Part shown: positions 10,722 to 58,821 of the stretch, one piece after another
Layout: each line of letters starts with the position of its first letter
Numbering within the stretch: the stretch's first letter is position 1
Assembly: GCA_963975885.1 (NCBI GenBank)
Contig: CAXBIS010000011.1
Span: 54,977-118,976, forward strand
Origin: an uncultured Azoarcus sp.
GTDB lineage: Bacteria > Pseudomonadota > Gammaproteobacteria > Burkholderiales > Rhodocyclaceae
Direction: 5' to 3'
Length of the DNA: 64,000 nucleotides
Position numbers and translations under genes: made by a program
The notes under the pieces: model-generated
What the model saw: only the letters and a program-made list of their open reading frames with translations
The model's database searches: none
Told to the model about the DNA's origin: nothing

Positions 10722-10787
10722 TCCGGCAGGTCAACGCAAAAACGGGCGCCGAAGCGCCCGTTTCAATCGAATCGTCAGGAAAGACGA

Positions 10788-12445: not shown

Positions 12446-12652
12446 ATGGCAACCGGTACCGTAAAGTGGTTCAACGACGCTAAGGGCTTCGGCTTCATCA
12501 CCCCCGCGGACGGCGGCGAAGACGTCTTCGCTCACTTCTCCGCGATTCAGGGTGGCGGCTTCAAGTCGCTGGCCGAGAACGACAAGGTTTCGTTCGACAT
12601 CGTGTCTGGCCCGAAGGGCAAGCAAGCCGCGAACATCCAGCGCATCGACTGA
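12446..12652 (+). CDS. cspA: cold-shock protein, CspA family
   Basis: 68 aa: [35 protein letters not shown], carrying the RNP1/RNP2 motifs. The exact paralogue is not resolvable. Confidence 0.9.
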
Positions 12653-12674
12653 ACGTCTGCCGCTGAATGAAAAA

Positions 12675-12700
12675 AGCCCAGGTCATCCTGGGCTTTTTTA
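12675..12700. terminator. intrinsic terminator after cspA (A-tract upstream, so possibly bidirectional for tenA)
   Basis: AGCCCAGG-tcat-CCTGGGCT, an 8-bp stem followed by TTTTTT. Confidence 0.7.
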
Positions 12701-12770
12701 CGTCCACTCATTACGTTCGCTCACGCCTCAAATGCAGCACGTCCAACACCAACGCAATTAAGAGCAGGCC

Positions 12771-13436: not shown

Positions 13437-13523
13437 GTCACAAATCCTCGGTCGACGCGGAACTCGGTTTCGTCAAGCGGCTTACAAAGCGCCGCCCCGG
13501 GTGCATGTCGACAGGCACCCAGT

Positions 13524-14462: not shown

Positions 14463-14729
14463 CAGGAGGCTCCTTTTGACAACGAGCTATTGGCCGAACC
14501 GTCGAAGAGTCGGCGCCAGAATCTATGCGGACTCCGATCGTTACGCGCAGATCGGGATGCATCGCATGGACACGGCGGATGATCAATGGCAATCAAAGCA
14601 CGGTCGCTGCACGAGCAGAAGGGACAGGCGTCCGGTATTGATGAATACCGGACGTACAACGCGGCGACAACCAGTTTGCCACGGGCGCAAAGGCTGACAA
14701 TAGCGTTGATATTGTCAGGCGCGCGGGCA

Positions 14730-17700
14730 TCAGGCCACGTCTTTGAGCTTTGCTTTCGAAAAAATCCCGAACAGCACGGGAAGCACAAAGAGCGTCAGAA
14801 AAGTGGACGTCACCAGCCCCCCGACGATGACACTCGCTAACGGCTTCTGTATTTCCGCACCAACACCATTAGACAGCAGCATCGGGATCAACCCCAACGC
14901 CGAGGTCATAGCCGTCATCAGTACCGGTCTGAGTCGCGACGTCGCTCCGTCGAATACGGCATCGGAAACTATCAACCCATCAGCGATGCGCTGATTGATG
15001 CTTTCAACCATCACGACACCATTAAGTACAGCCACCCCGAACAGCGTAATGAAACCGATTGAACTCGGCACCGAGAGATATTGTCCGGACACCCATAAGG
15101 AAAACACCCCCCCGATCACGGCCAACGGCACGTTGACCAGGATCAGCAAAGCCTGCCCCACAGAATTGAAGGCGAAGTAGAGCAACAGGGCGATTAGGCC
15201 TATGGAAACAGGAACGACCAGTGACAGCCGTTTTTGAGCACGCTCCTGATTTTCGAATTGCCCTCCGATCTCGACCGAGTAACCTGTTGGCAATTCGACC
15301 TGCTCTCGAATTACCTGACGGATGTCCGCCACGACGCTACCCATGTCGCGCCCTTCCACGTTCGATTGAACAACGACGCGGCGCTGAACGTCATCACGAC
15401 GCACCTGAGGAGGACCAGAGGCAATCGTGACCTCGGCGACGTCTCCAAGCCGCACCAAGGCGCCGGACGGCGCTCTTAATCGGAGGTCCGAGATTGTTTC
15501 ACGATCATCGCGAAAACGTTCATCGAGACGTACGTAGATATCGTAACGTTCATTACCCTTGATGATCTGGCCGGCGCGAGCCCCGCCCAATCCGTCCCGC
15601 ACCAGCGTCATCACATCACCGACGGCGAGACCATAACGAGACAACGATCTACGATCGGGCGTAACGACGAGTTGCGATTCACCTACGATCTGTTCCATCG
15701 CCACATCGCGTGCGCCTTTAACGGTCTTGACGACAGCCTCGATCTCCGCGCCCTTCTCGGCGAGCACCTTCAAGTCAGGCCCGAACAGCTTGATGGCGAG
15801 CTGAGCTTTTACACCCGAAAGCAATTCGTCCACCCGGGTCGCAATCGGCTGTGAGAAATTCAATAGCAACCCCGGATGCTGCTCCAGCCTCTGCTCCATC
15901 AGTGACTGCAATTCATAGCGGTTGGATGCACTGACCCACTGTTCTGCCGGCTTGATACCTATATAGATCTCGATGTTGTTGACCGGCTCCGGGTCGCCGC
16001 CCAGTTCCGCGCGACCAATGCGTGACAAGGCATAGGTCACCTCCGGAAACTCCATCAACATCCTTTCGAGCCTGGGGGCCACTTCCAGCGCCGTATCTAG
16101 GCTCGAAGACGGCGCAAGAGTAACCCTCAGATTGATCGTTCCCTCTTCCAGTTCGGGCACGAACTCGGTGCCAAGCCGGGGAACCACCAGCGCGGCCGCG
16201 GCCACCAGCAAGACGGCGACTGCGACGACCGCCTTGCCGTTGCGCATCGCCCATTTCAGACCCTTCCGGTAGACCGAATCGAGCGGCTTCAAAACCCAAC
16301 TCTCACGCTGGCGAATCCCGCTGCGGAAGATATAACTGGCCAAGGCCGGAACGATCACTAGAGCCACCAATAGCGCAGACAGCATCGCGAGGATAATGCT
16401 GATGGCCATCGGCTGAAACAGTTTGGCCTCGACTCCTTGGAAACTGAACAACGGCATGAAGACCACGAGAATAATGGCGGTCGCAAAGAAGATTGGCCGG
16501 GCAACTTCCCGTCCGGCTTCCTGAATCCGCAGCGCGATGCCATTACGATCATGGACGACATCCAGCGGATCCTCGTCCCGCCCGTCTACCAGTTGTTTGC
16601 GTTCCGCATCATGCTCCGCGTCCGGGTGGGTCAGATGCTTGAACATGTTCTCTACCATGACCACCGAACCGTCGACCAACATGCCGATCGCGACAGCAAT
16701 ACCGCCCAACGACATCAGGTTGGCTGACAAGCCGTACCAGGCCATGACCATCAAGGCGATACCAACGGATATCGGAATTGATATCAGAACAAGAAAGGTG
16801 GCCCGCAAGTTCATTAGAAACAAGGCCAGAATCACAGCAATGAATACGAAGGCAAGCAACAGCGCATTGACAACCGTCCGTACCGCCTGAGTGATCAAGT
16901 CCGCCTGATCGTAGAATGCCTCGAAGCGCACGCCTTCGGGCAGCGCCTGACTGATTCGTTCGACACGCGCGTTGATCGCGTCAATGGTCGATTTAGTGTT
17001 CGCGCCCATACGCTTTAGTACGATCCCGGCCACGACTTCCCCGAGTTCCTCGACTTTGCCTTCGGCATCTTTCCGGGTCATGGTCACTGCACCCTGGCGA
17101 ATCTCGCTACCGACATCGACGCGCGCCACATCCGCAACGGTCACTGCCACACCGTCGACGGTTCTCAGGGGGATCTGACGGATTTGTTCCAGACCCTGTT
17201 CGCCGTGATCCAGCCATCCGGTGCCCCGAATCACCAATTGCTCCTGACCCCGATTCATGTACCAGCCGCCGACGTTGGCGTTGTTGCGTTCCAGCGCCGT
17301 CATTACATCATCCTGACTCAGGTCGAACGCCAAAAGCCGAGACGGATTCAAGTTGACCTGGTACTGGCGGACATCTCCTCCAAAGGACAGCACATCAGTG
17401 ACACCTTCGGCCGGAATGAGCAGCAGTTTTACCACCCAATCATTGAGGCTGCGCAAGGCCATCGCGTCATAGCCCGAACCCGGATCGGCCATCAGAAGAT
17501 ACTGATAGACTTGGCCGAGACCAGAGGTATTGGGCCCCATTTCCGGCGTTCCGATACCCTGGGGAATCAGTTCCTTCGCCGCCTGCAGGCGTTCAAACAC
17601 CAGCTGACGTGCAAAGTAGACGTCAGTCCCGTCTTTGAACACCACGGTAATACCGGAAAGACCGGTTTTTGAGATGGAGCGCACCTCTTCGACGTCGGGC

Positions 17701-17927
17701 AGCGCGTACATGACTGCTTCGATCGGATAGGTAATCAGCTGCTCTACTTCTTCTGCCGCGAGCCCGGGGGCTTCCGTATTCACCGCAACCTGTACATTGG
17801 TCACGTCTGGAAATGCGTCCAGATTGAGCCGAGGGATGACCGAGACGGCAACCCCCATCAATGTGAATAGCGCAATCACTACAAGCAAGCGGTTTCTGGC
17901 GGCCCAATCTATGACTCGATTAAACAT
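14730..17927 (-). CDS. czcA: CzcA/CusA-family heavy-metal RND efflux pump
   Basis: 1065 aa with 12-TM RND architecture. N-terminus MFNRVIDWAARNRLLV...DAFPDVTNVQV is typical of the HME-RND family. Confidence 0.9.
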   Translation of the reverse strand: MFNRVIDWAARNRLLVVIALFTLMGVAVSVIPRLNLDAFPDVTNVQVAVNTEAPGLAAEEVEQLITYPIEAVMYALPDVEEVRSISKTGLSGITVVFKDGTDVYFARQLVFERLQAAKELIPQGIGTPEMGPNTSGLGQVYQYLLMADPGSGYDAMALRSLNDWVVKLLLIPAEGVTDVLSFGGDVRQYQVNLNPSRLLAFDLSQDDVMTALERNNANVGGWYMNRGQEQLVIRGTGWLDHGEQGLEQIRQIPLRTVDGVAVTVADVARVDVGSEIRQGAVTMTRKDAEGKVEELGEVVAGIVLKRMGANTKSTIDAINARVERISQALPEGVRFEAFYDQADLITQAVRTVVNALLLAFVFIAVILALFLMNLRATFLVLISIPISVGIALMVMAWYGLSANLMSLGGIAVAIGMLVDGSVVMVENMFKHLTHPDAEHDAERKQLVDGRDEDPLDVVHDRNGIALRIQEAGREVARPIFFATAIILVVFMPLFSFQGVEAKLFQPMAISIILAMLSALLVALVIVPALASYIFRSGIRQRESWVLKPLDSVYRKGLKWAMRNGKAVVAVAVLLVAAAALVVPRLGTEFVPELEEGTINLRVTLAPSSSLDTALEVAPRLERMLMEFPEVTYALSRIGRAELGGDPEPVNNIEIYIGIKPAEQWVSASNRYELQSLMEQRLEQHPGLLLNFSQPIATRVDELLSGVKAQLAIKLFGPDLKVLAEKGAEIEAVVKTVKGARDVAMEQIVGESQLVVTPDRRSLSRYGLAVGDVMTLVRDGLGGARAGQIIKGNERYDIYVRLDERFRDDRETISDLRLRAPSGALVRLGDVAEVTIASGPPQVRRDDVQRRVVVQSNVEGRDMGSVVADIRQVIREQVELPTGYSVEIGGQFENQERAQKRLSLVVPVSIGLIALLLYFAFNSVGQALLILVNVPLAVIGGVFSLWVSGQYLSVPSSIGFITLFGVAVLNGVVMVESINQRIADGLIVSDAVFDGATSRLRPVLMTAMTSALGLIPMLLSNGVGAEIQKPLASVIVGGLVTSTFLTLFVLPVLFGIFSKAKLKDVA

Positions 17928-17942
17928 GGGGACTCCAACTGT

Positions 17943-19232
17943 TCAGTGGTTATGCGGATCGAAGCCGCCCTTGGCGATTTGCGAAGCAACAAAAAATGCC
18001 CCTTGCATGACGACCTGCTTCCCCGGCTCGATACCCACTATTTCACGCACCGACCCCAGGGCGCGCCCGAGTTCGACTTCGACCGGCTCGAATTTTCCGG
18101 GTGCGTTTTCAACGAAGACAGTCCAATCTCCGTCTGCCCCGCGCATCAGCGCGGATTCGGGCACCGCGAGCACGGCAGTGTCGGTGCGAAAGCGAAAGAA
18201 AACCTCGGCGAATTGGCCCGGATGCAGGCGATGCCCAAGGTTATCGACCAGCAGGCGCACCGTGCGAGTGCGCGTGATCGGGTCGATCGTATGGGCCTCC
18301 TGGCTCACCCGCGCTTCCGCCCGCGCTGCACCCGCGCGGACTTCCGCCAAGGTTCCCGCGCCGAGAGTCAGGGTCATGTCGGCTGGTAGGTGAGCTTCGA
18401 CCCAGAGTTGCTTTTCGTCCGCCAGCATGATGAGCGGCGCACCGGGCTCGATACGCTGTCCCTGCTCGAACTCGTCGGCAAGAACTGCGCCATCGATTTC
18501 GGCTCGCAAGGTATATTCACCAAGGTTATTGCTGCTCCGTTTCCGCTCGGCTTCGAACGCCGACTTTTCCACCCCATAGGCCAACAGCGTAGCCTCTGCG
18601 GCCTCGATATCGGACTGGGCACTTACGTATCGCTGCTCTCCGACGGTCTTCCTCCCAAGCGCCCTCACCCTTTGCCATTCCGACCAAGCTTTTTGATACT
18701 CGGCCTGGGTGCGAGCCACGCTCTCGCTGAACAGAGTGACCAACGGCTGTCCCTGTTTGACATGGTCGCCCAAGGCGACATGACGGCGCAGCACCACGGA
18801 GGCCACCCTTGGCGACACGCGGTAACTGGTGTAGCCATTCGACAGGATCTCGCCCGGCGCATAGAGTTGATACTCGACTACCCGGGCCACGAGGGGTTCG
18901 ACTTTGATGTCGGCGAGCGCCATTTGAGTGGTATTCAATGCGGTCGCAGCGGATTCCTCTTCATCGTGACCGTGACCGTCCTCTCCGCTCACGTCACGCT
19001 CGTGTTTCGCGTCTTTGTCATGGTCATACGCGGAATCGGATAGGTGGTCGCCATGGGCATCGCCTTCCGTGTGTTCTTCCACGCGATCATGATCACGAGC
19101 TTCGAGCTCTTTGTCCTGCATCGCCTTAGCATTTTCCGCGTGAGAATGCGCGTCCTCTTTTTCCGCCCATGCGTAACCCACAACGGTCGGAACGAGCGCG
19201 GCGATCAGGACGCCAATATAGATGTTCTTCAT
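17943..19232 (-). CDS. czcB: RND periplasmic adaptor (CzcB-type) with a His/Asp/Glu-rich N-terminal region
   Basis: From ATG 19232: MKNIYIGVLIAALVP (signal or anchor), then a 90-aa His/Asp-rich stretch, then HlyD-like barrel-sandwich motifs. Lies directly upstream of czcA. Confidence 0.8.
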   Translation of the reverse strand: MKNIYIGVLIAALVPTVVGYAWAEKEDAHSHAENAKAMQDKELEARDHDRVEEHTEGDAHGDHLSDSAYDHDKDAKHERDVSGEDGHGHDEEESAATALNTTQMALADIKVEPLVARVVEYQLYAPGEILSNGYTSYRVSPRVASVVLRRHVALGDHVKQGQPLVTLFSESVARTQAEYQKAWSEWQRVRALGRKTVGEQRYVSAQSDIEAAEATLLAYGVEKSAFEAERKRSSNNLGEYTLRAEIDGAVLADEFEQGQRIEPGAPLIMLADEKQLWVEAHLPADMTLTLGAGTLAEVRAGAARAEARVSQEAHTIDPITRTRTVRLLVDNLGHRLHPGQFAEVFFRFRTDTAVLAVPESALMRGADGDWTVFVENAPGKFEPVEVELGRALGSVREIVGIEPGKQVVMQGAFFVASQIAKGGFDPHNH

Positions 19233-19242
19233 GTCGAAATTC

Positions 19243-20475
19243 CTAGCGTAGATTCGAACGGTCCAGCAACTGAACCAGTTCTCCGGATTGGAGCAGGACG
19301 TCGGCAAGGGCGAGCCGGGCCTGCTTTTCCAGAGCGATGCCCGCCGACAAACTATCCGCTCGCTGATTCAGGGCCTGCAGGTACTCGGTCGTTGAAAGGT
19401 CACCGCCGTTCCACTGCTGCCTGAGTAGATCAGAACTTTTCTCTATGCGTCCCTGCACGAGTTCTTGCCAGCGATCATATTGTTCTGCATAACGCCACCA
19501 GGCAGCGTGCGCGGCCCGCCAACTGAAACGTTGCTTGCGATATACATCTTGGAAGCGAGCCTCCGCTTCCAAAGCCATTTGCGAGGCAGCTCGCGTTTCG
19601 GCGCTGAAGTTGTTGCGTACGTTGAGCGGAATGGAGACAGCCACCCCCACGACGTGCTCGCCTCCATCGCGACCTGCATTGACGCCAAAAGTTGGCTTCG
19701 CCTTGGTGGAAAGTCGCACCACATCGGCTTCTCGCGTCAGGGTCTGCCAACGGGCCTGCGCGCCAGCCACCGCCGGGTGCTGCAACAGGTCCTGATCCGT
19801 AGTTGGCGCGGGCGCAGACGGCCAGAAACCGGCTGGAACGCCACCTTTCTCGGGAGTCCACTCCGGCAACAGTTCAGCCAAGCGAATTTCCGCTTTTCGT
19901 ATCGCCGCCTCGGCTTCGGCGACTTGCGCCAGCCGTTCCGACAATGACAGGAACGTCAGTTCGGCATCTACGCTACCCAGATCGCCCAAACGCTGACGTT
20001 TATCCACTTGCTCAAGGAGCTTGTCGAGAAAATTCTTTTGTTCCTTGGTAATGCTCGCGGCCTGACTGGCTGCTTCCCACTCCACCAACGCAGAGATCGC
20101 CTCGGCGGACTTCTCCAGCAACTGCTGCCGATAAAGCGCTTCGGCGGCACCCCGCATGAACATCGCCTTTTGTGTTTGCGCCCCCCGCTGGTCCCACCAG
20201 TCAATGGTCTGCCGGACTCCTACCCGGTAGTTGCTGGCACCCGCATTGCGCTCCAGGTCGGTCGAAAGCTCCGGGTTGAAGAGCGGCTGCTCGGCCGCAT
20301 CGGCACTGGCCTGGGTACCCAGCAGTTGCTCCCGGGCGGCTACTATTTGAGGGTGCTGTTCAATCTGGGAGTTAAACCAGACCGACCAACTCGACACATC
20401 CGCGTGGGCCAGCACGGAAAAAAAGCAGATGCATGCACCGAACAAAGCGCGCCCGAATTTGTGAAATCGACTCAT
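19243..20475 (-). CDS. czcC: outer-membrane efflux factor (CzcC/TolC family)
   Basis: From ATG 20475 (GGAGAA RBS): MSRFHKFGRALFGACICFFSVLAHA signal. About 410 aa with helical repeats typical of the OMF family. First gene of the C-B-A order. Confidence 0.8.
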   Translation of the reverse strand: MSRFHKFGRALFGACICFFSVLAHADVSSWSVWFNSQIEQHPQIVAAREQLLGTQASADAAEQPLFNPELSTDLERNAGASNYRVGVRQTIDWWDQRGAQTQKAMFMRGAAEALYRQQLLEKSAEAISALVEWEAASQAASITKEQKNFLDKLLEQVDKRQRLGDLGSVDAELTFLSLSERLAQVAEAEAAIRKAEIRLAELLPEWTPEKGGVPAGFWPSAPAPTTDQDLLQHPAVAGAQARWQTLTREADVVRLSTKAKPTFGVNAGRDGGEHVVGVAVSIPLNVRNNFSAETRAASQMALEAEARFQDVYRKQRFSWRAAHAAWWRYAEQYDRWQELVQGRIEKSSDLLRQQWNGGDLSTTEYLQALNQRADSLSAGIALEKQARLALADVLLQSGELVQLLDRSNLR

Positions 20476-20779
20476 GGTGATTCTCCTTCGTTTGGGCACC
20501 TCGAATAAGCCGAGGTTTCGGTAAATCCCGCCGCACAGCCATGAAAGCGAGGGGATGTTTCTCGTTCGCTTGGGCACAACTCACCGCTTTTCGCGGCGTC
20601 GTCGTCCCACTCGTGCGAGGATTCAGCTTGGGATATGGAAATATCTACTCCTCGCGCGCGTCAGCCAGCCTAGGCTTCGAGGCTCGTGGCTTTTGAGGAA
20701 ATCGGCGAGGAGCGCGGACGGAGGACGTCGGCCCGCAAGGGATGCGCGTAAATTTTGAACGCGATCTTTGGCCTCGCCG

Positions 20780-21124
20780 TTAGGCGACGAGGCTGGCCCA
20801 TTTGGGCCGTTCGATACGGGAAGGGGGAGACAGGGTGACAGGCAATTGCAGGTCCGCTACGGCCTGTCCGACAGACGCGTAAAGATCAAGATCGAATGCG
20901 ACGACTACTAGTGTCTTGGCGTGCAATTTGCACGTTGCGCAGTCCGGATGTTTGGACGACGGCGATTTCGGCTCGTCGCGATCATCATCGCGGTGGCTAT
21001 GGTCGTGGTGCCCGAAGTGCGATGCATCGGCACCCTGTTCGTGCTCGCAATAATCGCCTGCAACCGCCCAAACGGACTGAAGCGGCAACAAAGCAAACAG
21101 CAGGATGGCGATCCATCTATTCAT
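20780..21124 (-). CDS. small secreted His/Cys-rich protein, CzcI-like
   Basis: From ATG 21124: MNRWIAILLFALLPLQSVWA signal, then YCEHE...HFGHHDHSH...DCATCKLH...IERPKW. The size, motif layout and position upstream of czcC recall CzcI. This comes from memory of the family, not from a search. Confidence 0.5.
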   Translation of the reverse strand: MNRWIAILLFALLPLQSVWAVAGDYCEHEQGADASHFGHHDHSHRDDDRDEPKSPSSKHPDCATCKLHAKTLVVVAFDLDLYASVGQAVADLQLPVTLSPPSRIERPKWASLVA

Positions 21125-21232
21125 AAGTGTGATTATAGCATTCGCGCTCGTGCGCAAACAAACATGGGCGTTGCGCGGATTGCCGGCGCGAGGCGGCGGG
21201 CGTGTGCTCGAAGCCCGGGATCGACAGGGCAT

Positions 21233-21973
21233 TCATTTCGGTTCTTGCGGGCCGCAGCAGTTCTCCTTCCCTGTTTGCGCGCTTCGCCCGGAAGAGGCCT
21301 GCGGGACGCAGGAGGCGGGAGCTTCTGCGGTGCCGCCATCGATGCCGGCGTCGGTAACAGCGTTGGCGCGCCATTCCTGCAGGGACTCACGAATGATCTG
21401 TACCGCAGAATGCAGGAACAGCGCCGCGATCAGGAGGCCAACGAGGAGGTCCGGCCACAGACTTCCGGTGAGCGCGACCAGACCGGCTGCGGCGATCACG
21501 CTGCTGTTGGCGATCAGATCGTTGCGCGAACACAGCCACGTCGAGCGCATATTCAGATCATCGGCGCGGTGGCGATACAGCATGGCGGCGCAGAGGCCGT
21601 TGGCTAGCAGCGCCAGCGCGCCGACGGCGGCCATCCAGTCGGCGGCAGGGACTTCCTGCAGCATCAGTTTGCGCACCGCGTCGGCCACCACCACCACGCC
21701 GAAAAGCAGCATGAAGCCGCCCTTGAACATTGCTGCGCCAGCGCGTGCACGCGCTCCGCGGTGGAGCACGAACAGCGTCAGCGCATACACCGAGGCGTCG
21801 CCGAACATGTCGAGCGAATCCCCCAGCAACGCCGTCGAACGGGCAATCCAGCCAGCGGCGAATTCCACCACGAACATGGCTGCATTGATGGCCAGCACGA
21901 TGTAGAGTACGCGGCTCTGGCTGGCACGCAATTGCGCCAGTTCGCCAGCCTTGTTCTCGCAGCAACTATCCAT
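21233..21973 (-). CDS. short CDF-family cation transporter with terminal Cys pairs
   Basis: 246 aa. TM core with LLGDSLDMFGDASVY and SRNDLIANS motifs (CDF sites). N-terminal MDSCCE and C-terminal ENCCGP. Divergent from a MerR regulator. Confidence 0.75.
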   Translation of the reverse strand: MDSCCENKAGELAQLRASQSRVLYIVLAINAAMFVVEFAAGWIARSTALLGDSLDMFGDASVYALTLFVLHRGARARAGAAMFKGGFMLLFGVVVVADAVRKLMLQEVPAADWMAAVGALALLANGLCAAMLYRHRADDLNMRSTWLCSRNDLIANSSVIAAAGLVALTGSLWPDLLVGLLIAALFLHSAVQIIRESLQEWRANAVTDAGIDGGTAEAPASCVPQASSGRSAQTGKENCCGPQEPK

Positions 21974-22014
21974 GATCTTTTCCTGCCGAATCGAACACAG
22001 CGGCTAGCATGAAG

Positions 22015-22036
22015 CTTGTAGCGACTATAAGGTCAA
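22015..22036. promoter_or_regulatory. candidate MerR-type operator (imperfect dyad) overlapping a TTGACC -35 hexamer on the CDF-gene strand
   Basis: CTTGTAG-cga-CTATAAG (22015-22031) is an imperfect palindrome. TTGACC reads on the minus strand at 22036-22031. I could not find a convincing -10 hexamer. Confidence 0.3.
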
Positions 22037-22041
22037 GTCCC

Positions 22042-22467
22042 ATGAGCACGCGGACTTTCACCGTGGGGCAACTCGCGCAGGCCACGGGCACGCGTGCGGT
22101 GACCATCCGCTATTACGAACGCATCGGTCTGTTGCCGTCCGCCGCGCGCAATGCCTCTGGCTACCGGGTGTATACGGCGCAAGAGCGCGATCGCCTGCGC
22201 TTCGTCCGACGCAGCCGCGCGCTGGGCTTCAGCCTTGAAGACATCCGCGATTTGCTCGAACTGGCCGATCATCGCCGGTCCTCGTGCGCCGCGGTAGACG
22301 CGAAGATCACCCAGAAATTGGAACAGGTGCGCCAGAGCATATGCGACATGCAAGGCCTGGAACAGGAACTCGAACGCCTGTCGTCCTGCTGTCAGGGCGG
22401 CGTGATCGAGGAATGCCGCATCATCGAGTCGCTTGGATACGAGCCGGGCGACGGGCACCGCCGCTGA
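22042..22467 (+). CDS. MerR-family heavy-metal-responsive transcriptional regulator
   Basis: From ATG 22042: MSTRTFTVGQLAQATGTRAVTIRYYERIGLL (MerR HTH), then a coiled-coil dimerisation helix, then Cys cluster SSCA ... SSCCQGGVIEEC as in ZntR/CadR-type sensors. Confidence 0.85.
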   Translation: MSTRTFTVGQLAQATGTRAVTIRYYERIGLLPSAARNASGYRVYTAQERDRLRFVRRSRALGFSLEDIRDLLELADHRRSSCAAVDAKITQKLEQVRQSICDMQGLEQELERLSSCCQGGVIEECRIIESLGYEPGDGHRR

Positions 22468-22883
22468 TCAGGGAAACCTGCCGCAATCGCGTCACGGTTC
22501 AAAAGCGGCCACATGCCGATGGTGAATCACGCCGGAAGCCCCTCGTCCCGAGCGCGCAACTGAAAGGCGTTTTCGAGCCGCGCGAGCCGGGGCTTGTGGC
22601 CCGAAGCCACGTAGGCCTGAGCCTACGAGAGTTGCTTCAAGGGAAACTCGCGCAGCACTTCCGGGCGGCGGGCAACGGAAACCAGCCAAGGCGAGCGGTT
22701 TGTAATGATGGCCATGAGTACCTCATCGTCAGTTGAAGAGGACTCGTGTAAGCAACGGTTTTTATGGCGGGCGCACTGCGGTGTTGATTTTCGTGTCGCG
22801 CTCGTGTCGCGCCAAAACGAATTAGCGCGACACTGGGACGCAGTCCCAAGAGCGCGAGATAACGCAAACCCTTGATTAAAATC

Positions 22884-22913
22884 AAAAAATCCACTTCATG
22901 AGTGGCTTTTTTG
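22884..22913. terminator. short hairpin flanked by A- and T-runs downstream of tRNA-Pro
   Basis: AAAAAAT-CCACT-tcatg-AGTGG-CTTTTTTG. The stem is only 5 bp, hence the low confidence. Confidence 0.45.
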
Positions 22914-22923
22914 CGGGAATTGG

Positions 22924-23000
22924 TGGTCGGGGAAAGAGGATTCGAACCTCCGGCCCCTGCGTCCCGAACGCAGTGCTCTACCAGGCTGAGCTATTCCCCG
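22924..23000 (-). tRNA. tRNA-Pro (anticodon CGG)
   Basis: The reverse complement folds as a cloverleaf: acceptor CGGGGAA/TTCCCCG, D arm GCTC-AGCCTGGTA-GAGC, anticodon arm CTGCG-TTCGGGA-CGCAG, T arm GGAGG-TTCGAAT-CCTCT, then an encoded ACCA tail. 77 nt. Confidence 0.9.
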
Positions 23001-53417: not shown

Positions 53418-55013
53418 CTAAGAAGAACTTTCAAGCGCGAGTGGATTCGCTCGCGAAAAAGAGCGTTCTCCACAAGTAAACGGACAAGCCCGGGTTCCAT
53501 TGATCTTCTTGCCGACTCTTCGGTTGCGGGCGTCGATGAGGTAGTCGATGGTCACGTCGCCGGGCAAGGTGACCTGACGCAGATTGCCCAGTGCGTCGTA
53601 GTCGTAGGTGGTGGTCGCACCCGACTGGGTCTTGCTTTGGAGTTCTCCGTTGGCAGTGTAGTCGTAGCTGCTGTTGCCGTAGGTGAGCAGACGGTCCTGG
53701 GCGTCGTAGGTGGCCACGGGCACGTCGTTGACGTGGCTGCGGTTGCCGTTGGCGTCATAGCTCCAGGTGGTCTCGACGCCGCCACGGGTGTGGCTGACCA
53801 GCCGTCCGGCGGCATCGAAGGCGTACTCGTCCGTGACACTGGCGCCGGACAGGGTCTCGGTGCGGGCAGTGATGCGGCCAGCCGCATCACGCGTGTAGGC
53901 GAACTGGAGTACTTCGGTGGCACCGAGTGTGGTGGTGTCGAGGGTGGGTTCGCCGAAGGCGTTGTAGTCGTGCTCCGTGGCGACCGTGCCCAGGGTGGTT
54001 GCCGTGATGAGGCCGTTCTGCGCGTCGCGTGTGAGTTGCAGCGCGCCGGCTGCGGTGAGTAGCCCGTCGGCGTCGTAGTCGAGCGCGACGGACTGGCCAT
54101 TGACCGCGATCGAGCGCAGCCAGAAGTTGTCGTCCCAGCTGCGGGTGATGCTGCCGGAGACTTCGCCTGTGGCGATCTCGGTGATCGGCAGGAAGCCGTC
54201 CCAGGTGAAGTCGAGGCGGTGGCCGCCGGGGGCGGTGACGGAAGCCGGCTGGCCGGTGTCGGCGTGGTAGGTCCAGACGGTTTCACCGACATCGGTGCTA
54301 ACGGTCGCAAGCCGACCACCGGTGTCGTACGCGAAGTCGATGGGCTCGCCGTCGGGGCGGGTGATGCGGGTCAGTCGTTTGTCGCGATCGTAGGTGTGGC
54401 GCGTGACCGTGGCGAGCCCGGCCAGTTCGGGCGGATCGTATTCGCGTAGCTGGTCGGCCTCGGTGTAGTCGAACAGATGAGCGTCGCGGCCCGGCGGAAT
54501 GACGGCGGCGAGGTTGCCGTTGGCGTCGTAGCCGAATTCGACGCTGCGCCCGTCGGAAAAGGTCTGGCGGGTGACGCGGCCGACCGGGTCGTAGTCGAAG
54601 GCCGTGATGCGATCGAGCGGGTCGGTGATCGAGGCCAGATCGCCCGCCCTACTCCACGCGAAGTCGGTGATGCGCTCGGACGACTCCCCGGCCAGGACCC
54701 GCGTGATCCGACCGCGGGCGTCCCGCTCATAGGTGAGCGGGGCGAGGCCGGAGTAGGCCTCGTGCGCCGGACGACCCAGTTCATCGAGGATCTGTTCGTG
54801 GGTGCGCCCGAGCGGCGTGCTGGTGACGCGCGTGCGATCGGCAGCGGTGCAGCTCTCGTACGGCGGGATATGCGCAGCGCATCCCGCCGGATGGTTCGTT
54901 GCAAACCTCCTTGTGCAATCGCCAGCATGCACCAAAAACCCCGTGCGCGGCGCAGTCTCTGGTCGATCATCGCCCTTTGTCCACGAAGACCGGATCAGTT
55001 GCAGCCCCCGCAC
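53418..55013 (-). pseudogene. RHS/YD-repeat protein fragment (repeat region only; both ends missing)
   Basis: About 460 aa of YD repeats (e.g. YDANGNLAAV, FAYDTGGRLATV, YAFDAAGRLVSH, YDYDALGNLRQV). The frame leaves the family consensus right after ...DARNRRVGKKINGT (near 53495). There is no N-terminal domain, no RHS core and no toxin tip. Confidence 0.75.
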
Positions 55014-55179
55014 CCTTTGCAGTCAAGCAAGTACCTGCGCAATCCGTCACGTGATCGTAAAGCGCTGGCACATATGGTGTTTTTGTGAAACAGTATGCCC
55101 ATTGACAATCAATAACGACGCACGCACGTTGATTCGATATTGCAGCGTGCAATCAAAGCACTGTTAAGCATTGAAGGAG

Positions 55180-55779
55180 ATGAAATTGGAAGTTGCAACC
55201 TGGATATCAGCCGTAGCCAATATTTTTATCGCCCTTGGCGTCGGTCTTGCTTTGTGTTCATTCCGCGGCGACCATGAAAGATCAAGACGAGAAAAAGCTG
55301 TCGAGCTTATTTCTCAGTGGGCACTGAACCTGAATAAGAGAGGGTCTGCTGCGAGAAAGCTGGTGGAAACGCTTGATCACGAAAAATCCAAGTTGCTCTT
55401 CAATCAAGAACCTCTGACGATTGGCAAGAAGCATATTGGGCTAGTTCGAGCAGCTTTGGAAGCTGATGTAAATGAGCCTGAAGGTAATGAAATTGATTTG
55501 GACGAAAATCAGTCCTCTGAGCTACGTTGGCAAGTTGTTACATTCTTAAATAGCCTTGAATCAGTACTATCGGCATGGCGGCACAATATAGCTGATAAGG
55601 ACATTATTACTGAGCAATTTAGATATTTGGTATCGAAAACCGATGGTCACTATATTTTGGAGGAATTTAGGGTTGTTGCTGGAGGTAGTCATACTTACCC
55701 AGCAATACAAGAATTTGTGGAACATCTTAAAAAAGAGCTAAATAAAAATGACGGTTCAGGTAAGCGGCCTGTTGCTTAA
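55180..55779 (+). CDS. hypothetical N-terminally membrane-anchored helical protein (cassette 1)
   Basis: AAGGAG RBS at 55174-55179. The start is ambiguous (TTG 55171, ATG 55180, or TTG 55186 with the best spacing). TM segment VATWISAVANIFIALGVGLALCSF, then a basic stretch, then about 170 aa of predicted helices with an acidic patch EADVNEPEGNEIDLDENQ. About 40-45% GC. No family recognised with confidence. Confidence 0.7.
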   Translation: MKLEVATWISAVANIFIALGVGLALCSFRGDHERSRREKAVELISQWALNLNKRGSAARKLVETLDHEKSKLLFNQEPLTIGKKHIGLVRAALEADVNEPEGNEIDLDENQSSELRWQVVTFLNSLESVLSAWRHNIADKDIITEQFRYLVSKTDGHYILEEFRVVAGGSHTYPAIQEFVEHLKKELNKNDGSGKRPVA

Positions 55780-55871
55780 CAAAACGCTTTTGTCGGACTG
55801 GTTTTCCGCTGCGCTCCAAACCAGCCGCAAAGCTTGGCGCTGGGCGTACAACCATGCTTTTTGAGTTGGAG
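55774..55871 (+). other. attC-like recombination site of cassette 1 (3' core ambiguous or degenerate)
   Basis: R'' is GCTTAAC and contains the TAA stop. Bulged stem GCTTTTGTCGGACTGGTTT / AAACCAGCCGCAAAGC with extrahelical T, T and A. Block-wise similarity to the 57414 site: AACAA-N3-GCTT-N5-GGAC ... CCGC-N2-AGCT ... GGGC-GT. Candidate 3' cores are GTACAAC (55846) or GTTGGAG (55865). Confidence 0.45.
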
Positions 55872-55888
55872 AACTATCAGGACTAATC

Positions 55889-57382
55889 ATGGCTAGCAAG
55901 CTAGAAATACTAAAAACCACCGAAATTGGCGAGCGCGTTGCGGAAGAGGAAGCCGATAGTCTGGAGCAATATTTTGTCGAAACAGACCAATGGCAGCAAA
56001 TGCGCGCAGGCAAGATTGATGTCGTGTATGGGCCGAAGGGTTCGGGGAAGAGCGCCCTATACACATTGTTAAACCGGAAAGACGGTGAGTTCTTTGATGC
56101 CGGAATACTCATAGCAGCGGCGGAAAACGTCAGGGGGGCCACCGTTTTCAGATCAATTGTTGCTGATCCGCCGCCATCTGAGATGGCATTTATTTTTCTG
56201 TGGAAACTCTATTCATTGACATTAATCGCACGCGAACTTCGCGAATACGAAGTAAAAACGGAGGAGTCAAAGGCTCTGATAGAAAGCTTAGAAAGGGCTA
56301 AGTTGTTGCCGGCCAGCGGGACGCTTTCTGGTCTTTTCACAGCAGTCCGCACCTATCTCACTAGTTGGCTAAATCGTGATGCGGATTCAGTCGAGTATGC
56401 GATAACTATCGACCCAATGACTGGCACCCCTACTTTTACCAGAAAAACGCGATTCGCTGAACAGTCCGACGATCAGAATCTTGGGGATATCCCGGTTGAT
56501 GATCTCCTAGGCGTCGCGGATGTCGCTTTACGGAAAAGCAAGTTGACTATGTGGGTGTTATTTGATCGCCTCGATGTAGCTTTCGCCGAGTCAGAAGACC
56601 TTGAACGAAATGCATTACGCGCTTTGTTTCGGGCCTATAGCGATTTGCGCGCACATTCACATATATCTCTAAAGATATTTGTAAGAGACGATATTTGGCG
56701 TCGGATAACGGAGGGCGGATTTACTGAGGCTAGCCATATTACTAAAGCAGTACACATAAGTTGGACAAACGAAAGTCTATTGAATCTAGCGGTCCTTCGG
56801 CTTATCAGCAATCAGAGTATCGTAGATTACCTATCCGTCGATCCGGCCGCCGTAAGGGCGGATTACCACCAGCAGCTAGAACTATTCTATCGTCTCGCAC
56901 CTCGTCAAGTTGACACCGGGAAAAACCCGGACGCATTCGACTGGATCGTTTCGCGAACAACAGATGCAAGTGGGAACTCAGTCCCGCGTGAGGTCATCCA
57001 CTTAATCGATGTGGCTAAAGATCTGCAGATTCAGAAATTGGAAAGAGGTGGTGAGGAACCTGAGGGAGAGATCCTGATTGATCGAAGTGCATTTAAAGAA
57101 GCTTTGCCTCAGGTATCGAAAGTGCGCTACGAGCAAACACTCATAGCTGAGCATCCCGACATGGCTGACTATCTCAAGCAGCTAGAAGGTGAAAAGTGCG
57201 AACAGACTGTTGATACACTTGCAAGGCTGTGGAAAATTGAGCGGAGCGACGCCGCAGTCATAGGTAAACGACTCGTGGACATCGGGTTCTTCGAATCTAG
57301 GGGCTCAAAAGAAGCCCCATCGTTTTGGATCCCGTTTCTATATCGAGGAGCGCTCGATTTGGTACAGGGGAAGGCAGAATGA
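55889..57382 (+). CDS. P-loop NTPase of unrecognised family (cassette 2)
   Basis: 497 aa. Walker A VVYGPKGSGKSALYTLL. Walker B-like LTMWVLFDRLDVAF. A further conserved-looking ISLKIFVRDDIWRRI. The C-terminal third is helical, possibly wHTH-like. No nuclease, protease or TM domain is evident. AGGA RBS is 6 nt upstream. About 45% GC. Confidence 0.75.
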   Translation: MASKLEILKTTEIGERVAEEEADSLEQYFVETDQWQQMRAGKIDVVYGPKGSGKSALYTLLNRKDGEFFDAGILIAAAENVRGATVFRSIVADPPPSEMAFIFLWKLYSLTLIARELREYEVKTEESKALIESLERAKLLPASGTLSGLFTAVRTYLTSWLNRDADSVEYAITIDPMTGTPTFTRKTRFAEQSDDQNLGDIPVDDLLGVADVALRKSKLTMWVLFDRLDVAFAESEDLERNALRALFRAYSDLRAHSHISLKIFVRDDIWRRITEGGFTEASHITKAVHISWTNESLLNLAVLRLISNQSIVDYLSVDPAAVRADYHQQLELFYRLAPRQVDTGKNPDAFDWIVSRTTDASGNSVPREVIHLIDVAKDLQIQKLERGGEEPEGEILIDRSAFKEALPQVSKVRYEQTLIAEHPDMADYLKQLEGEKCEQTVDTLARLWKIERSDAAVIGKRLVDIGFFESRGSKEAPSFWIPFLYRGALDLVQGKAE

Positions 57383-57413
57383 CGATGAGAGTTCTCGTTC
57401 CTGTAGATGTACC

Positions 57414-57476
57414 GCCCAACAATCGGCTTGAGAAGGACGCTCGCAAAGCGAGCGCCGCTCAGCTGGGCCGTTAGCG
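57414..57476 (+). other. attC-like recombination site of cassette 2
   Basis: GCCCAAC (RYYYAAC) - AATCG - GCTTGAG - AAGGA - CGCTCGC-aaa-GCGAGCG - CCG - CTCAGC - TGGGCC - GTTAGCG. A 63-bp imperfect palindrome with an extrahelical T, resembling the aadA-type 59-base-element layout. Confidence 0.6.
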
Positions 57477-57566
57477 TGCATACGTAGCCATGAGCCGGTT
57501 CACTTTTTTCGCCGATATTGCAGGCCAAGCAACACTTGATACGAAGGGCAGCAATCGCATTACGGC

Positions 57567-58579
57567 TGTACAGATCAAGTATTCACCTGACACCGGCCCC
57601 GAGCCGGTGTTGCTTTATGCAGCCTGCGGGATTGTCTCCTCGGGCTGCTCGGTAATGCCCGCCTCGAACATCTGAGCAGGCGTTCTGCCTTCCATCATCC
57701 GCCCCTGATGCGGGCGCTCGTGGTTGTAGTGGTGCAGGTACTTCTCCAGGTCCCCCTGCATCTGTTCAACCGACTCGTACCACTTCGTTCGCCCGGCAAT
57801 GCGGAAGTGCTCATCAAGCAAGGTGCGATGCAGCCGTTCGACGAATCCGTTGCTCTGCGGGCGTCCGACGCGAGTCGTGCGATGCTCGATACCTTCCAGT
57901 TGCAGGAACAGCTCGAACGGATGGCTGTCGGGCCGCCCGCAGTACTCGCGCCCGTTGTCCGACAGGATCGTTTCGATGCGAACGCCGTGCTCTTCAAAGT
58001 GTGGCAGCACGTCGTTGTTGAGCACATGCACGGCGGTGAGCGGCAGCTTGCTGGTGTACAGGCGACCGAAGGCGAAGCGGCTGTAGCAATCGAGCACCGT
58101 CTGCAGATAGACCTTGCCCACGCCCTTGAGCGCGCCGACGAAGAAGGTGTCGATGGCGACCAATTCGCCGGTGTGATGCACTTCGATCTGGCGCTCGCGA
58201 AACTCGGGGCTGAAGCGTTCGAGCAGGCGCACCTGTTCTTCATTCAGATCCAACGCCTGCTCGCGTTGCGCACGTTCCAGACGCGGTAGCCGGGCAGCTT
58301 GTCGAGCAAGCCGGCCGAGCCATACGTCTGGTAGTTGCGCCGGATCTCGTAGAATTGCTGCCGGCTGTAGCCCATCACCTTGCACGCGCGGCTCACGTTG
58401 CGAAGCTCCTGCGCCAGCTCCAGAAGGCTCTGCTTGCGACGTGCTATTTTCTCTTCGGTGGTCATGCGTACTTCCTCCAGGTCATGAACAGGTAGGGGTA
58501 CCCGTTTCATAACCCTGTTCGAGGCCGTATGACCACCCCCTGACATGGTCAACTGTCAGGTGAATACCGTATCAGCACA
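57567..58579 (-). mobile_element. IS481-family insertion sequence, internally deleted, with 7-bp target-site duplication
   Basis: Imperfect about 26-bp terminal IRs: TGTACAGATCAAGTATTCACCTGACA (57567-57592) and TGTCAGGTGAATACCGTATCAGCACA (58554-58579), with a 14-bp perfect core. Direct repeats TTACGGC at 57560-57566 and 58580-58586. Confidence 0.8.
57615..58465 (-). pseudogene. IS481-family DDE transposase, internally deleted and frameshifted
   Basis: The N-terminal HTH part MTTEEKIARRKQSLLELAQELRNVSRACKVMGYSRQQFYEIRRNYQTYGSAGLLDKLPG stops at 58244. The rve/DDE part (…EEQVRLLERFSPEFRERQIEVHHTGELVAIDTFFVG…SDNGREY…PQSNGFVERLH…) is in another frame. The junction is near 58285-58292, and roughly 75 codons of the family consensus are missing. 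Confidence 0.8.
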
Positions 58580-58821
58580 TTACGGCAGATGCAGTGGCGG
58601 TTCCGACAGGCAACGTTGAAAATCTCCGGTCTCACGTGCACGGCTGGCCGAAGTGGCGTGATTGCGACGTCTACCCGCATTTGATTAGCACGTCGCCTTG
58701 GAGTCCAGTCCCATTGTAAGCTTCCCATTCAGGGGCAAGCTCGGTTGGCGATAATCGTATCGCGCAAATCCTGATCGGCCGCGGGGTCACATGCGCTGCG
58801 GTCGAGCGCCCCACTCTCTGT

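What the first reader, a model, noticed from the sequence alone, without database searches (positions are those of the whole stretch)
55180..57382. Candidate undescribed conflict/defence module: membrane-anchored helical protein plus orphan P-loop NTPase
These are two adjacent same-strand genes in the lowest-GC part of the window (about 40-47% in counted lines versus about 65-70% in the flanks).

Gene 1 (about 200 aa) has one N-terminal TM helix (VATWISAVANIFIALGVGLALCSF). This is followed by a basic juxtamembrane stretch and an all-helical cytoplasmic domain with an acidic patch.

Gene 2 (497 aa) has a clear Walker A (GPKGSGKS), a Walker B-like hhhhD (MWVLFDRLD) and a helical, possibly wHTH-like C-terminal third. 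It has no nuclease, protease, TIR, Sir2 or TM effector domain.

I could not place either protein in a family I know. Resemblance of gene 1 to DUF4760-type proteins, and of gene 2 to Sll1717/KAP-like ATPases, is only a vague recollection. An NTPase sensor or switch next to a small membrane protein is a recurring logic in abortive-infection systems. The setting (cassette array, RHS remnant, IS) is a defence-island-like context. Because the attC between them has a doubtful 3' core, the two cassettes may have become a fixed two-gene unit. Equally, they may be unrelated single-gene cassettes.
Basis: inference. Interest (0 to 1): 0.8.

Follow-up and report, generated by a model that had tools for sequence, protein, structure and literature searches.

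The report
Two unrelated integron cassettes, side by side
The two genes are real and foreign to their host, but they are two independent integron gene cassettes that sit together only in this genome; one belongs to an ATPase family in which another branch was recently shown to protect E. coli against phages.

Summary
There are two same-strand ORFs, gene 1 (55171/55186-55779) and gene 2 (55889-57382), in a stretch of 43-51% GC flanked by 63-71% GC.

The proposed two-gene module is not supported. Of 81 loci that carry a gene 2 relative and have enough upstream DNA, none has a gene 1 relative. Of 37 loci that carry a gene 1 relative and have enough downstream DNA, none has a gene 2 relative. Neither family has any conserved neighbour. 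The only other co-occurrence is a Tara Oceans scaffold 100% identical to the window.

Each gene is a separate integron cassette with its own attC. The attC between them has a degenerate 3' core, GCTGGGC where GTTRRRY is expected. No integron integrase is in the window. An IS element cuts a third cassette.

Both families are already catalogued. Gene 1 is DUF4760 (PF15956). Gene 2 is an "Sll1717 family" P-loop ATPase (NF047389, 199 bits). Its model has an ORC/Cdc6-, BrxC- and Apaf-1-like ATPase core with a C-terminal winged helix.

The validated single-gene E. coli antiphage protein DS-41 also passes the Sll1717 model. Gene 2 is therefore a sister-branch candidate single-gene defence ATPase. Gene 1's function remains unknown.

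Verdict: new members of known kinds, of modest interest.

The parts
55163..55169 (+). GTTAAGC core site marking the left boundary of cassette 1. The cassette begins at the TT, position 55164.
   Evidence: Similarity between the window and the gene 1 relatives L082 (88% aa) and L083 (82% aa) starts at this heptamer. Upstream of it the three sequences are unrelated. The 75 nt upstream do not fold like an attC (z = +0.46).
55186..55779 (+). Gene 1: a DUF4760 protein of 197 aa from the conserved TTG start. The open frame begins at 55171. It has an N-terminal TM helix, a conserved juxtamembrane DHERSRRE motif and a helical cytoplasmic domain.
   Evidence: Pfam PF15956 scores 34.3 bits against a cut-off of 25. 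There are 67 word-indexed relatives, the best 99% identical, and 906 representative clusters at E<=1e-3, the 150 listed being about 170-330 aa. The AF2 model has pLDDT 86. No PDB fold match was found, best E 0.28. Conserved columns are listed.
55774..55845 (+). attC of cassette 1. R'' is GCTTAAC at 55774-80 and overlaps the stop codon. The R' position at 55839-45 reads GCTGGGC instead of GTTRRRY.
   Evidence: The site is conserved from GCTTAAC to ...GCAAAGC..GCG in L082 and L083, after which each locus diverges. The bottom strand of L082 folds as an R''/R'-paired hairpin (z = -2.2). The window copy loses that terminal pairing (z = -1.3).
55889..57382 (+). Gene 2: an Sll1717-family P-loop ATPase of 497 aa. 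It has an ORC/Cdc6-, BrxC- and STAND-like nucleotide-binding core, a helical lid and a C-terminal winged helix. Cassette 2 spans 55840-57470.
   Evidence: NCBIfam NF047389 scores 199 bits against a cut-off of 75. PHROG 14159 (function unknown) matches at 1.4e-106. PADLOC PDC-M28C matches partially at 1.5e-17. More than 2660 relatives were found, the best 76% identical. AF2 gives pLDDT 88 and pTM 0.84. Foldseek finds BrxC, ORC2/Cdc6 and Apaf-1 at E 9e-6 to 1e-3.
57414..57476 (+). attC of cassette 2. R'' is GCCCAAC at 57414-20 and R' is GTTAGCG at 57470-76.
   Evidence: The bottom strand folds at -18.3 kcal/mol, z = -2.5. The close gene 2 relatives L151/L152 and L150 carry GCCCAAC or GCCTAAC sites at the same place downstream of the stop codon.
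57477..57566 (+). Start of a third cassette, cut off by the IS. By the G|TT cut the cassette itself begins at 57471, inside the R' box of attC2.
   Evidence: It lies between the attC2 core and the left inverted repeat of the IS. This reading is an inference.
57567..58579 (-). Insertion sequence bounding the cassettes. It has 26-nt terminal inverted repeats, and its HTH and rve transposase parts lie in two overlapping frames.
   Evidence: The inverted repeats are 57567-92 and 58554-79, 81% complementary. Pfam finds rve and rve_3 in 57615-58385 and HTH_28 in 58244-58552.
53418..55013 (-). RHS-repeat fragment on the other side of the cassettes. It is context only, not part of the feature.
   Evidence: Pfam RHS_repeat, five stretches, 1.5e-39.

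Best explanation
This is a short orphan stretch of integron gene cassettes with no integrase nearby. It lies in a small island between murI and queG of a Pseudazoarcus/Azoarcus-like betaproteobacterium, bounded by an RHS fragment and an IS. The two genes are separate single-gene cassettes that arrived independently.

Cassette 1 encodes a DUF4760 protein. It is anchored by one N-terminal helix, and its conserved basic DHERSRRE stretch and helical domain probably face the cytoplasm. Its biochemical role is unknown.

Cassette 2 encodes a stand-alone Sll1717-family ATPase. The domain order is an ORC/Cdc6- or STAND-type nucleotide-binding domain, a helical lid and a winged helix.

By analogy with DS-41, a validated single-gene antiphage protein of the same NCBIfam family, I infer that gene 2 acts alone as a nucleotide-dependent switch. 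It would recognise a phage component or nucleic acid through its winged helix or its insertion, oligomerise, and block infection. I put that at about 0.5.

The mutated 3' core of the attC between the genes probably means IntI can no longer separate them. That would be a local accident, not evidence that they work together.

Shown: anatomy, cassette boundaries, family membership, lack of co-occurrence. Inferred: membrane topology, defence role, mechanism, loss of recombination.
For: Independence of the two genes:
- 0 of 81 gene 2 loci with at least 700 nt upstream carry a gene 1 relative.
- 0 of 37 gene 1 loci with at least 1600 nt downstream carry a gene 2 relative.
- A relaxed search gives nothing better than E = 3.6.
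- No neighbour family is shared by more than 4 of 80 gene 2 loci or more than 4 of 68 gene 1 loci.
- The best relative of gene 1 is 99% identical, but the best relative of gene 2 is only 76% identical.

Cassette structure:
- Similarity to relatives starts and stops at core sites.
- attC2 folds well.
- Relatives lie in same-strand arrays of small genes: L153 and L160 in Solilutibacter oculi.
- No Phage_integrase hit appears among the 25 strongest of 41 Pfam families on 42 ORFs of 1-49.7 kb, and none on the flanking ORFs up to 61.6 kb.

Family placement and the defence lead:
- Family assignments come, and the fold of gene 2.
- DS-41 (AAA2, WP_033812887.1, 502 aa, single gene) reduced plaquing of several Bas phages by up to about 3.6 log (PMC13092281).
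- A 99%-identical copy of DS-41 passes both NF053860 (414 bits) and the Sll1717 model NF047389 (97.6 bits, cut-off 75).
- NCBI names DS-41's homologues 'Sll1717 family'.
- The same motifs occur in the same order in both proteins: Walker A, hhhhDxLD, FV(R/W)D, ISWxN, PRE(V/L)IxL (my reading of the two sequences; BLASTP and hhalign recover three of the five).
- Integron cassettes are a known reservoir of compact defence genes.
Against: - Gene 2 is not a DS-41 equivalog. It scores 30 bits against a cut-off of 370, and only over residues 17-65.
- Direct profile-profile similarity between the two branches is weak (E 1e-3, probability 22%). The functional transfer therefore spans a large distance.
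- Defence or mobile genes among the immediate neighbours of gene 2 relatives are only a minority, and I did not test this against a background.
- No close relative was found in deposited phage genomes.
- No promoter above chance was found, so expression is unknown.
- Nothing bears directly on the function of gene 1.
- The effect of the GTT-to-GCT change on IntI recombination is assumed from general knowledge of attC sites, not measured.
Confidence: 0.7

Rival explanations
1. One reading: the two genes form a fixed two-gene abortive-infection or defence module. The ATPase senses infection and the DUF4760 membrane protein is the effector. The decayed attC holds them together.
For: The genes are adjacent, on the same strand and 109 nt apart. 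The attC between them has a non-canonical R' core, GCTGGGC. An identical copy exists in a Tara Oceans scaffold. An NTPase next to a small membrane protein is a common defence layout (general knowledge).
Against: There is no co-occurrence in 81 plus 37 informative loci, even with relaxed thresholds. Small hydrophobic ORFs are no more common upstream than downstream of gene 2 relatives, 6 of 80 on each side. Both families are otherwise stand-alone, with no conserved partner. The Tara scaffold is the same sequence, not an independent occurrence. The related DS-41 works as a single gene.
Confidence: 0.05
2. Neither cassette is a defence gene. Gene 2 would be a DNA-binding ORC/Cdc6-like ATPase serving a mobile element, for example in maintenance, replication control or regulation. 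Gene 1 would be a membrane protein with an unrelated niche function. Both would simply be integron cargo.
For: Most cassette genes have unknown and diverse functions. The gene 2 fold matches replication initiators as well as it matches BrxC or Apaf-1. Many relatives sit next to plain housekeeping genes. Gene 1 has no PADLOC hit, and gene 2 has only a partial hit to a candidate.
Against: A member of the same NCBIfam family is an experimentally validated antiphage protein. Relatives are scattered patchily across phyla as single insertions, several beside restriction-modification, Mrr or integrase genes. E. coli DUF4760 proteins are scored as likely defence genes by DefensePredictor, though they have not been validated.
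Confidence: 0.25

Closest known systems
DS-41 / AAA2 (WP_033812887.1), a single-gene antiphage ATPase of E. coli (DeWeirdt et al., DefensePredictor, Science 2026, PMC13092281; NCBIfam NF053860)
   Same: Both are about 500 aa (497 against 502) and stand alone with no partner gene. Both pass the Sll1717-family model NF047389. They share the order of motifs: N-terminal helix, Walker A, long helical insertion, hhhhDxLD, FV(R/W)D, ISWxN, PRE(V/L)IxL. Both families are spread widely across phyla.
   Different: Gene 2 fails the DS-41 equivalog model, scoring 30 bits against 370. Pairwise BLASTP finds only the P-loop. The profile-profile match is weak. Gene 2 is carried in a cassette, and its phenotype has not been tested.
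P-loop ATPase, Sll1717 family (NCBIfam NF047389) and PHROG 14159
   Same: Gene 2 matches over its full length, well above the cut-off (199 bits; 1.4e-106 to the PHROG).
   Different: These are annotation families with no assigned function. No paper in the searched library mentions Sll1717.
ORC/Cdc6, the BrxC N-terminal ATPase of BREX, and Apaf-1-type STAND NTPases
   Same: These are the best structural matches (E 9e-6 to 1e-3). The domain order is nucleotide-binding domain, helical lid, then winged helix. There are weak Pfam hits to ATPase_2, ORC-CDC6-like and AAA_16.
   Different: TM-scores are only about 0.3-0.37 and sequence identity is 10-13%. Gene 2 has no repeat sensor domain, no effector domain and no BREX partners. 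It carries a helical and beta-hairpin insertion of about 100 residues (98-200) in the ATPase core.
DUF4760 (Pfam PF15956)
   Same: Gene 1 passes the gathering threshold. It has the same size class and the same N-terminal membrane helix.
   Different: The match covers only profile positions 2-107 of 141. The family has no known function. The E. coli members flagged by DefensePredictor are longer (332-339 aa) and have not been validated.
Integron gene cassettes that encode phage defence (BRiCs; Kieffer et al. 2025, Darracq et al. 2025)
   Same: These are compact single-gene cassettes with their own attC. About a third of reported BRiCs have transmembrane helices.
   Different: Neither protein is among the described systems, judging from keyword searches of two of these papers. 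There is no integrase or Pc promoter here. No phenotype has been measured.
PADLOC candidate PDC-M28 (component C)
   Same: Residues 203-453 match the PDC-M28C profile at 1.5e-17, so it is a related ATPase.
   Different: PDC-M28 is a multi-gene candidate. The gene 2 family has no conserved neighbours, and the N-terminal half does not match.

Membership tests
Sll1717-family P-loop ATPase (NF047389) | Whole-protein score above NCBI's curated cut-off of 75 bits over most of the model | tested here: met
   199 bits, residues 13-473 on model positions 1-421 of 454
Sll1717-family P-loop ATPase (NF047389) | Intact Walker A and Walker B | tested here: met
   GPKGSGKS with K54 invariant. LFDRLD with D226 and D229 invariant in 59 sequences.
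DS-41 antiphage protein (NF053860, equivalog) | Score above the 370-bit equivalog cut-off | tested here: not met
   30.2 bits, residues 17-65 only. A 99%-identical DS-41 copy scores 414 bits.
DS-41 antiphage protein (NF053860, equivalog) | Protection against phage as a single gene | not testable with these tools
   This needs cloning and plaque assays. It has been shown only for the E. coli protein.
DUF4760 (PF15956) | Score above the Pfam gathering threshold of 25 bits | tested here: met
   34.3 bits, E 3.2e-8, residues 18-154. Fourteen of the fifteen closest relatives (P0121-P0137, down to about 50% identity) carry a precomputed PF15956 hit.
Integron gene cassette | One ORF followed by an attC whose imperfect inverted repeats end in RYYYAAC ... 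GTTRRRY | tested here: met
   Cassette 2 has GCCCAAC...GTTAGCG, a hairpin with z = -2.5. Cassette 1 has R'' GCTTAAC and a conserved attC body, but its R' reads GCTGGGC. So the feature is met for cassette 2 and only partly for cassette 1.
Integron gene cassette | Similarity to copies elsewhere ends at the G|TT recombination points, with unrelated neighbours beyond them | tested here: met
   for gene 1 (L082, L083, L084). for gene 2 (L150-L153).
Complete integron | IntI tyrosine recombinase and attI next to the array | tested here: not met
   Pfam scans returned no Phage_integrase hit for the flanking ORFs up to 61.6 kb, nor among the 25 strongest of 41 families on 42 ORFs of 1-49.7 kb; the last 2.4 kb was not scanned. 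The immediate neighbours are murI, an RHS fragment, an IS and queG.
Two-gene defence module (conserved operon) | Homologues of the two genes are adjacent in independent genomes | tested here: not met
   0 of 81 and 0 of 37 informative loci. The only hit, L081, is the identical sequence.
KAP NTPase | KAP_NTPase domain with transmembrane helices inserted in the P-loop domain | tested here: not met
   No KAP_NTPase hit at E<=1. The gene 2 model shows no membrane helices.
PADLOC PDC-M28 | Component C together with conserved partner genes A and B | tested here: not met
   Only a partial C match. No conserved neighbours in 80 loci.

The most novel reading that the evidence does not exclude
The T-to-C change in the R' core of the intervening attC has welded two independent single-gene cassettes into one mobilisable unit. 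In this lineage the DUF4760 membrane protein and the Sll1717-family ATPase would have begun to work together, as sensor and membrane effector. That would be a multi-gene defence system caught at its birth through cassette fusion. A less radical reading is also open: DUF4760 cassette proteins could be an unrecognised family of single-gene, membrane-acting antiphage proteins. I put that at about 0.25.
Probability: 0.04. Interest if true: 0.6.

Novelty: new member of a known kind. Interest (0 to 1): 0.3.

Why it matters
If gene 2 protects against phage, validated defence activity in the Sll1717 family would extend from one E. coli branch (DS-41) to a distant, cassette-borne branch. That branch has thousands of relatives in many phyla. 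It would also add to the evidence that integron cassettes stock compact single-gene immunity.

Gene 1 offers a well-conserved DUF4760 protein of about 200 aa, with a confident structure model and no known fold relative. It is a tractable test case for a family of about 900 sequence clusters.

As a claimed new two-gene system, the finding does not stand.

Tried and rejected
- Two-gene module: rejected on co-occurrence and on the absence of any conserved neighbour.
- An analogous but non-homologous small membrane partner upstream of gene 2 relatives: no enrichment, 6 of 80 upstream against 6 of 80 downstream.
- Phage or plasmid origin of gene 2: no tblastn hit in 50,697 phage records, and only three weak plasmid hits.
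- Sequence search of solved structures: only P-loop-level hits for gene 2 and nothing meaningful for gene 1.
- Fold searches for gene 1: no PDB match. There was one weak viral match, to the unnamed protein A0A3G8F6F1 (E 0.015, TM 0.46).
- Rfam scan of 54000-58800: no hits.
- Promoter and terminator scan: no more matches than in shuffled sequence.
- Strict RYYYAAC...GTTRRRY scan downstream of relatives: only 3 of 89 gene 2 loci and 4 of 63 gene 1 loci matched, against 1 of 369 control windows. The pattern is too strict to count cassettes, because it also misses attC2 and the L082 and L083 sites.
- Literature: DUF4760 has one incidental mention. Sll1717 and PDC-M28 have none.
- Exact look-up of gene 2 in the contig index found nothing, although the sequence is in the protein collection.
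- Direct profile-profile comparison of the gene 2 branch with the DS-41 branch was weak. The link therefore rests on shared membership of NF047389 and on colinear motifs.
Full report
**Observation**

The two ORFs exist as described. Gene 1 is open from 55171 to 55779. The start conserved in relatives is the TTG at 55186, six bases after that box, which gives a 197-aa protein beginning MEVATW. Gene 2 runs from 55889 to 57382 and encodes 497 aa.

GC falls to 0.43-0.51 between 55000 and 57500, against 0.63-0.71 on both sides. Third-position GC is 0.36 for gene 1 and 0.47 for gene 2, against roughly 0.7-0.9 for most host genes. The DNA is clearly foreign.

The flanks are a rhodanese gene, murI, an RHS-repeat fragment, then the two genes, an IS, queG and an amidase gene. 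MurI falls in a 90%-identity cluster with Azoarcus sp. and Pseudazoarcus pumilus proteins, and the window comes from a 254-kb contig.

**Family identity**

Gene 1 passes the Pfam threshold for DUF4760 (34.3 bits against 25). Gene 2 passes NCBIfam NF047389, "P-loop ATPase, Sll1717 family", at 199 bits against a cut-off of 75. It also matches PHROG 14159, function unknown, over its full length at 1.4e-106. It has a partial PADLOC hit to the candidate PDC-M28C at 1.5e-17 over residues 203-453. Gene 1 has no PADLOC or PHROG hit.

Neither protein is an orphan, although both families are functionally uncharacterised. The searched literature holds one incidental mention of DUF4760 and none of Sll1717 or PDC-M28.

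**Are the two genes a unit?**

- A scan of 185,579 species-representative genomes with an alignment of gene 2 relatives returned 80 loci. They come from Proteobacteria, Actinobacteria, Acidobacteria, Firmicutes, candidate phyla and others. None contains a gene 1 relative within 6 kb. A search with filters off and E up to 50 gives nothing better than E = 3.6.
- A scan of metagenome contigs with an alignment of gene 1 relatives returned 69 loci. Only one carries a gene 2 relative. That locus, L081, is a Tara Oceans scaffold 100% identical to window 54753-57611. It is the same element re-sampled, and it breaks in the RHS repeat and at the IS.
- Counting all fetched loci, 0 of 81 gene 2 loci with at least 700 nt upstream have gene 1. 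Likewise 0 of 37 gene 1 loci with at least 1600 nt downstream have gene 2.
- Clustering all neighbouring ORFs shows no family shared by more than 4 of 80 gene 2 loci or more than 4 of 68 gene 1 loci.
- Small hydrophobic ORFs are no more frequent upstream than downstream of gene 2 relatives (6 of 80 on each side).
- The closest relative of gene 1 is 99% identical, while that of gene 2 is only 76% identical. This again indicates separate histories.

**Cassette anatomy**

DNA alignments place the boundaries at integron core sites.

- Similarity between the window and the gene 1 loci L082 and L083 begins at GTTAAGC (55163-69). Upstream of it the sequences are unrelated.
- Downstream, all share an attC that starts at GCTTAAC (55774-80, overlapping the stop codon) and runs to ...GCAAAGC..GCG. 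After that each locus continues differently.
- At the R' position, L082 and L083 read GTTATGT and GTTATAT. The window reads GCTGGGC (55839-45).
- The gene 2 relatives L151/L152 and L150 have GTTGGGC and GTTAGGC respectively, about 50-70 nt upstream of their start codons. The window's CTGGGCG aligns with their TTGGGCG. The junction is therefore a normal cassette boundary carrying one T-to-C change in the near-invariant GTT.
- As single strands, the L082 site pairs its two ends while the window copy does not.
- Downstream of gene 2 there is a second attC, GCCCAAC...GTTAGCG at 57414-76, which folds with z = -2.5. Relatives have matching sites.
- About 95 nt later a 1013-bp IS with 26-nt inverted repeats (57567-58579) cuts what looks like a third cassette.
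- Relatives of each gene lie in same-strand arrays of small genes elsewhere: L153 for gene 2, and a 16-kb array in Solilutibacter oculi for gene 1.
- Pfam scans of 42 ORFs from 1-49.7 kb and of the flanking ORFs up to 61.6 kb gave no tyrosine recombinase, at least among the 25 strongest of 41 families listed for the first set. This is an orphan pair of cassettes, not a complete integron.

**What gene 2 looks like**

The AlphaFold model is confident (pLDDT 88, pTM 0.84). It shows an N-terminal helical segment followed by a P-loop core. The core carries a helical and beta-hairpin insertion of about 100 residues (98-200). After the core come a helical lid and a C-terminal helix-helix-hairpin unit.

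Foldseek's best matches are the N-terminal ATPase of BrxC (BREX), archaeal ORC2/Cdc6 and Apaf-1. E-values are 9e-6 to 1e-3, with TM about 0.3-0.37 and identity 10-13%. This agrees with weak Pfam hits to ATPase_2, ORC-CDC6-like and AAA_16.

Invariant residues include K54, D226 and D229, the FVRDD strand, the GGF.EASH loop and P366-R367-E368..H371. There is no recognisable effector domain, and nothing supports a KAP relationship.

**Link to a validated defence protein**

The weak NCBIfam hit to "DS41_1_antiphage" led to DeWeirdt et al. (Science 2026, PMC13092281). DS-41 (construct AAA2, WP_033812887.1) is a single 502-aa protein. Cloned alone in E. coli, it reduced plaquing of several BASEL phages, for example by about 3.6 log for Bas63.

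Its homologues are named "P-loop ATPase, Sll1717 family" by NCBI. A 99%-identical copy passes both NF053860 (414 bits) and NF047389 (97.6 bits, cut-off 75). Gene 2 and DS-41 are therefore members of the same family-level model, have the same size and are both stand-alone. I read the same motif order in the two sequences; BLASTP and hhalign recover three of the five motifs.

They are distant branches, however. Gene 2 scores only 30 bits on the DS-41 equivalog model. A direct profile-profile comparison is weak (E 1e-3, probability 22%). I therefore treat "works like DS-41" as a reasonable inference, at about 0.5. "Is DS-41" was tested and not met.

Immediate neighbours of gene 2 relatives include some Mrr-type nucleases, methyltransferases, ZorD-like helicases, integrases, resolvases and transposases. 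They also include ordinary housekeeping genes. This is suggestive, but I did not quantify it against a background.

**What gene 1 looks like**

The model (pLDDT 86) is one long helix. It starts in the membrane and continues through the invariant DHERSRRE stretch, followed by a compact helical domain with two short strands. The basic residues after the hydrophobic helix suggest that the domain faces the cytoplasm; this is an inference.

No solved structure resembles it (best E 0.28). One unnamed viral protein matches weakly. A full HMM search finds 906 representative clusters; the 150 best listed are about 170-330 aa and show no large fusions.

Neighbours are heterogeneous. One locus has Kiwa next door, and a few others have defence candidates. 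Longer E. coli DUF4760 proteins are listed as "predicted novel defense gene" in the DefensePredictor tables, but they were not validated.

Published work shows that many cassettes of unknown function, about a third of them with membrane helices, confer phage resistance. A defence role is therefore possible. The function remains unknown, and I would put a defence role at no more than about 0.25-0.3.

**Conclusion**

The sequence features are real. The interpretation as an undescribed two-gene module is not supported. The best account is two unrelated single-gene integron cassettes, stranded without an integrase, that happen to be neighbours. They have probably been made inseparable by a point change in the attC between them.

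Gene 2 is a new, cassette-borne member of the Sll1717 ATPase family and a credible single-gene antiphage candidate. Gene 1 is a typical DUF4760 protein of unknown role.

Noticed in passing
window 57567-58579: A 1013-bp IS with 26-nt inverted repeats. Its HTH part (58244-58552) and its rve part (57615-58385) lie in different, overlapping frames. This is either a programmed frameshift or a broken transposase. The IS appears to have cut a third integron cassette.
   Followed up: partly
window 54753-57611 = L081: A Tara Oceans metagenome scaffold (TARA_R110002049_G_scaffold54607_1) is 100% identical over its whole 2859 nt. It ends in the RHS repeat on one side and 45 nt into the IS on the other. 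This suggests that both the RHS sequence and the IS are repeated in the source genome.
   Followed up: partly
window 53418-55013 (-): An RHS-repeat ORF whose first 80 or so residues are not RHS-like, and with no recognisable N-terminal domain or C-terminal toxin tip in Pfam. It is probably a remnant. Together with the cassettes and the IS it forms an island of about 5.4 kb between murI and queG.
   Followed up: partly
window about 10000-23000: A second stretch of lower GC (0.56-0.63 against about 0.65-0.71). The Pfam scan of window ORFs also found RND efflux components (ACR_tran, HlyD, OEP) and a PemK/MazF-type toxin somewhere in 1-49.7 kb. I did not locate these or examine them as a possible island.
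   Followed up: no
P0338 and P0362 (relatives of E. coli DS-41): The validated antiphage protein DS-41 passes the Sll1717-family model NF047389 as well as its own equivalog model. The large, unstudied 'Sll1717 family' annotation therefore already contains an experimentally proven defence branch.
   Followed up: yes
L160:1-16591 (Solilutibacter oculi CP029556.1): A run of more than 20 small same-strand genes around the gene 1 relative. It includes Imm33, SnoaL, a small multidrug-resistance protein and many genes with no hit. The downstream site matches GCCTAAC...GTTAGGC. It looks like a long chromosomal integron array.
   Followed up: partly
Neighbours of gene 1 relatives (members of alignment A11, loci L082-L137): One gene 1 relative lies next to a complete Kiwa pair (KwaA and KwaB, E down to 1e-117). 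Others lie near PDC-S71, PDC-S31 and a TIR effector. I did not record which loci these were.
   Followed up: no
L153:1-5126: A gene 2 relative (69% identical) sits in a metagenomic contig of mostly same-strand small ORFs (71, 105, 81, 139 and 220 aa). This looks like a cassette array, and none of the ORFs is DUF4760-like.
   Followed up: partly
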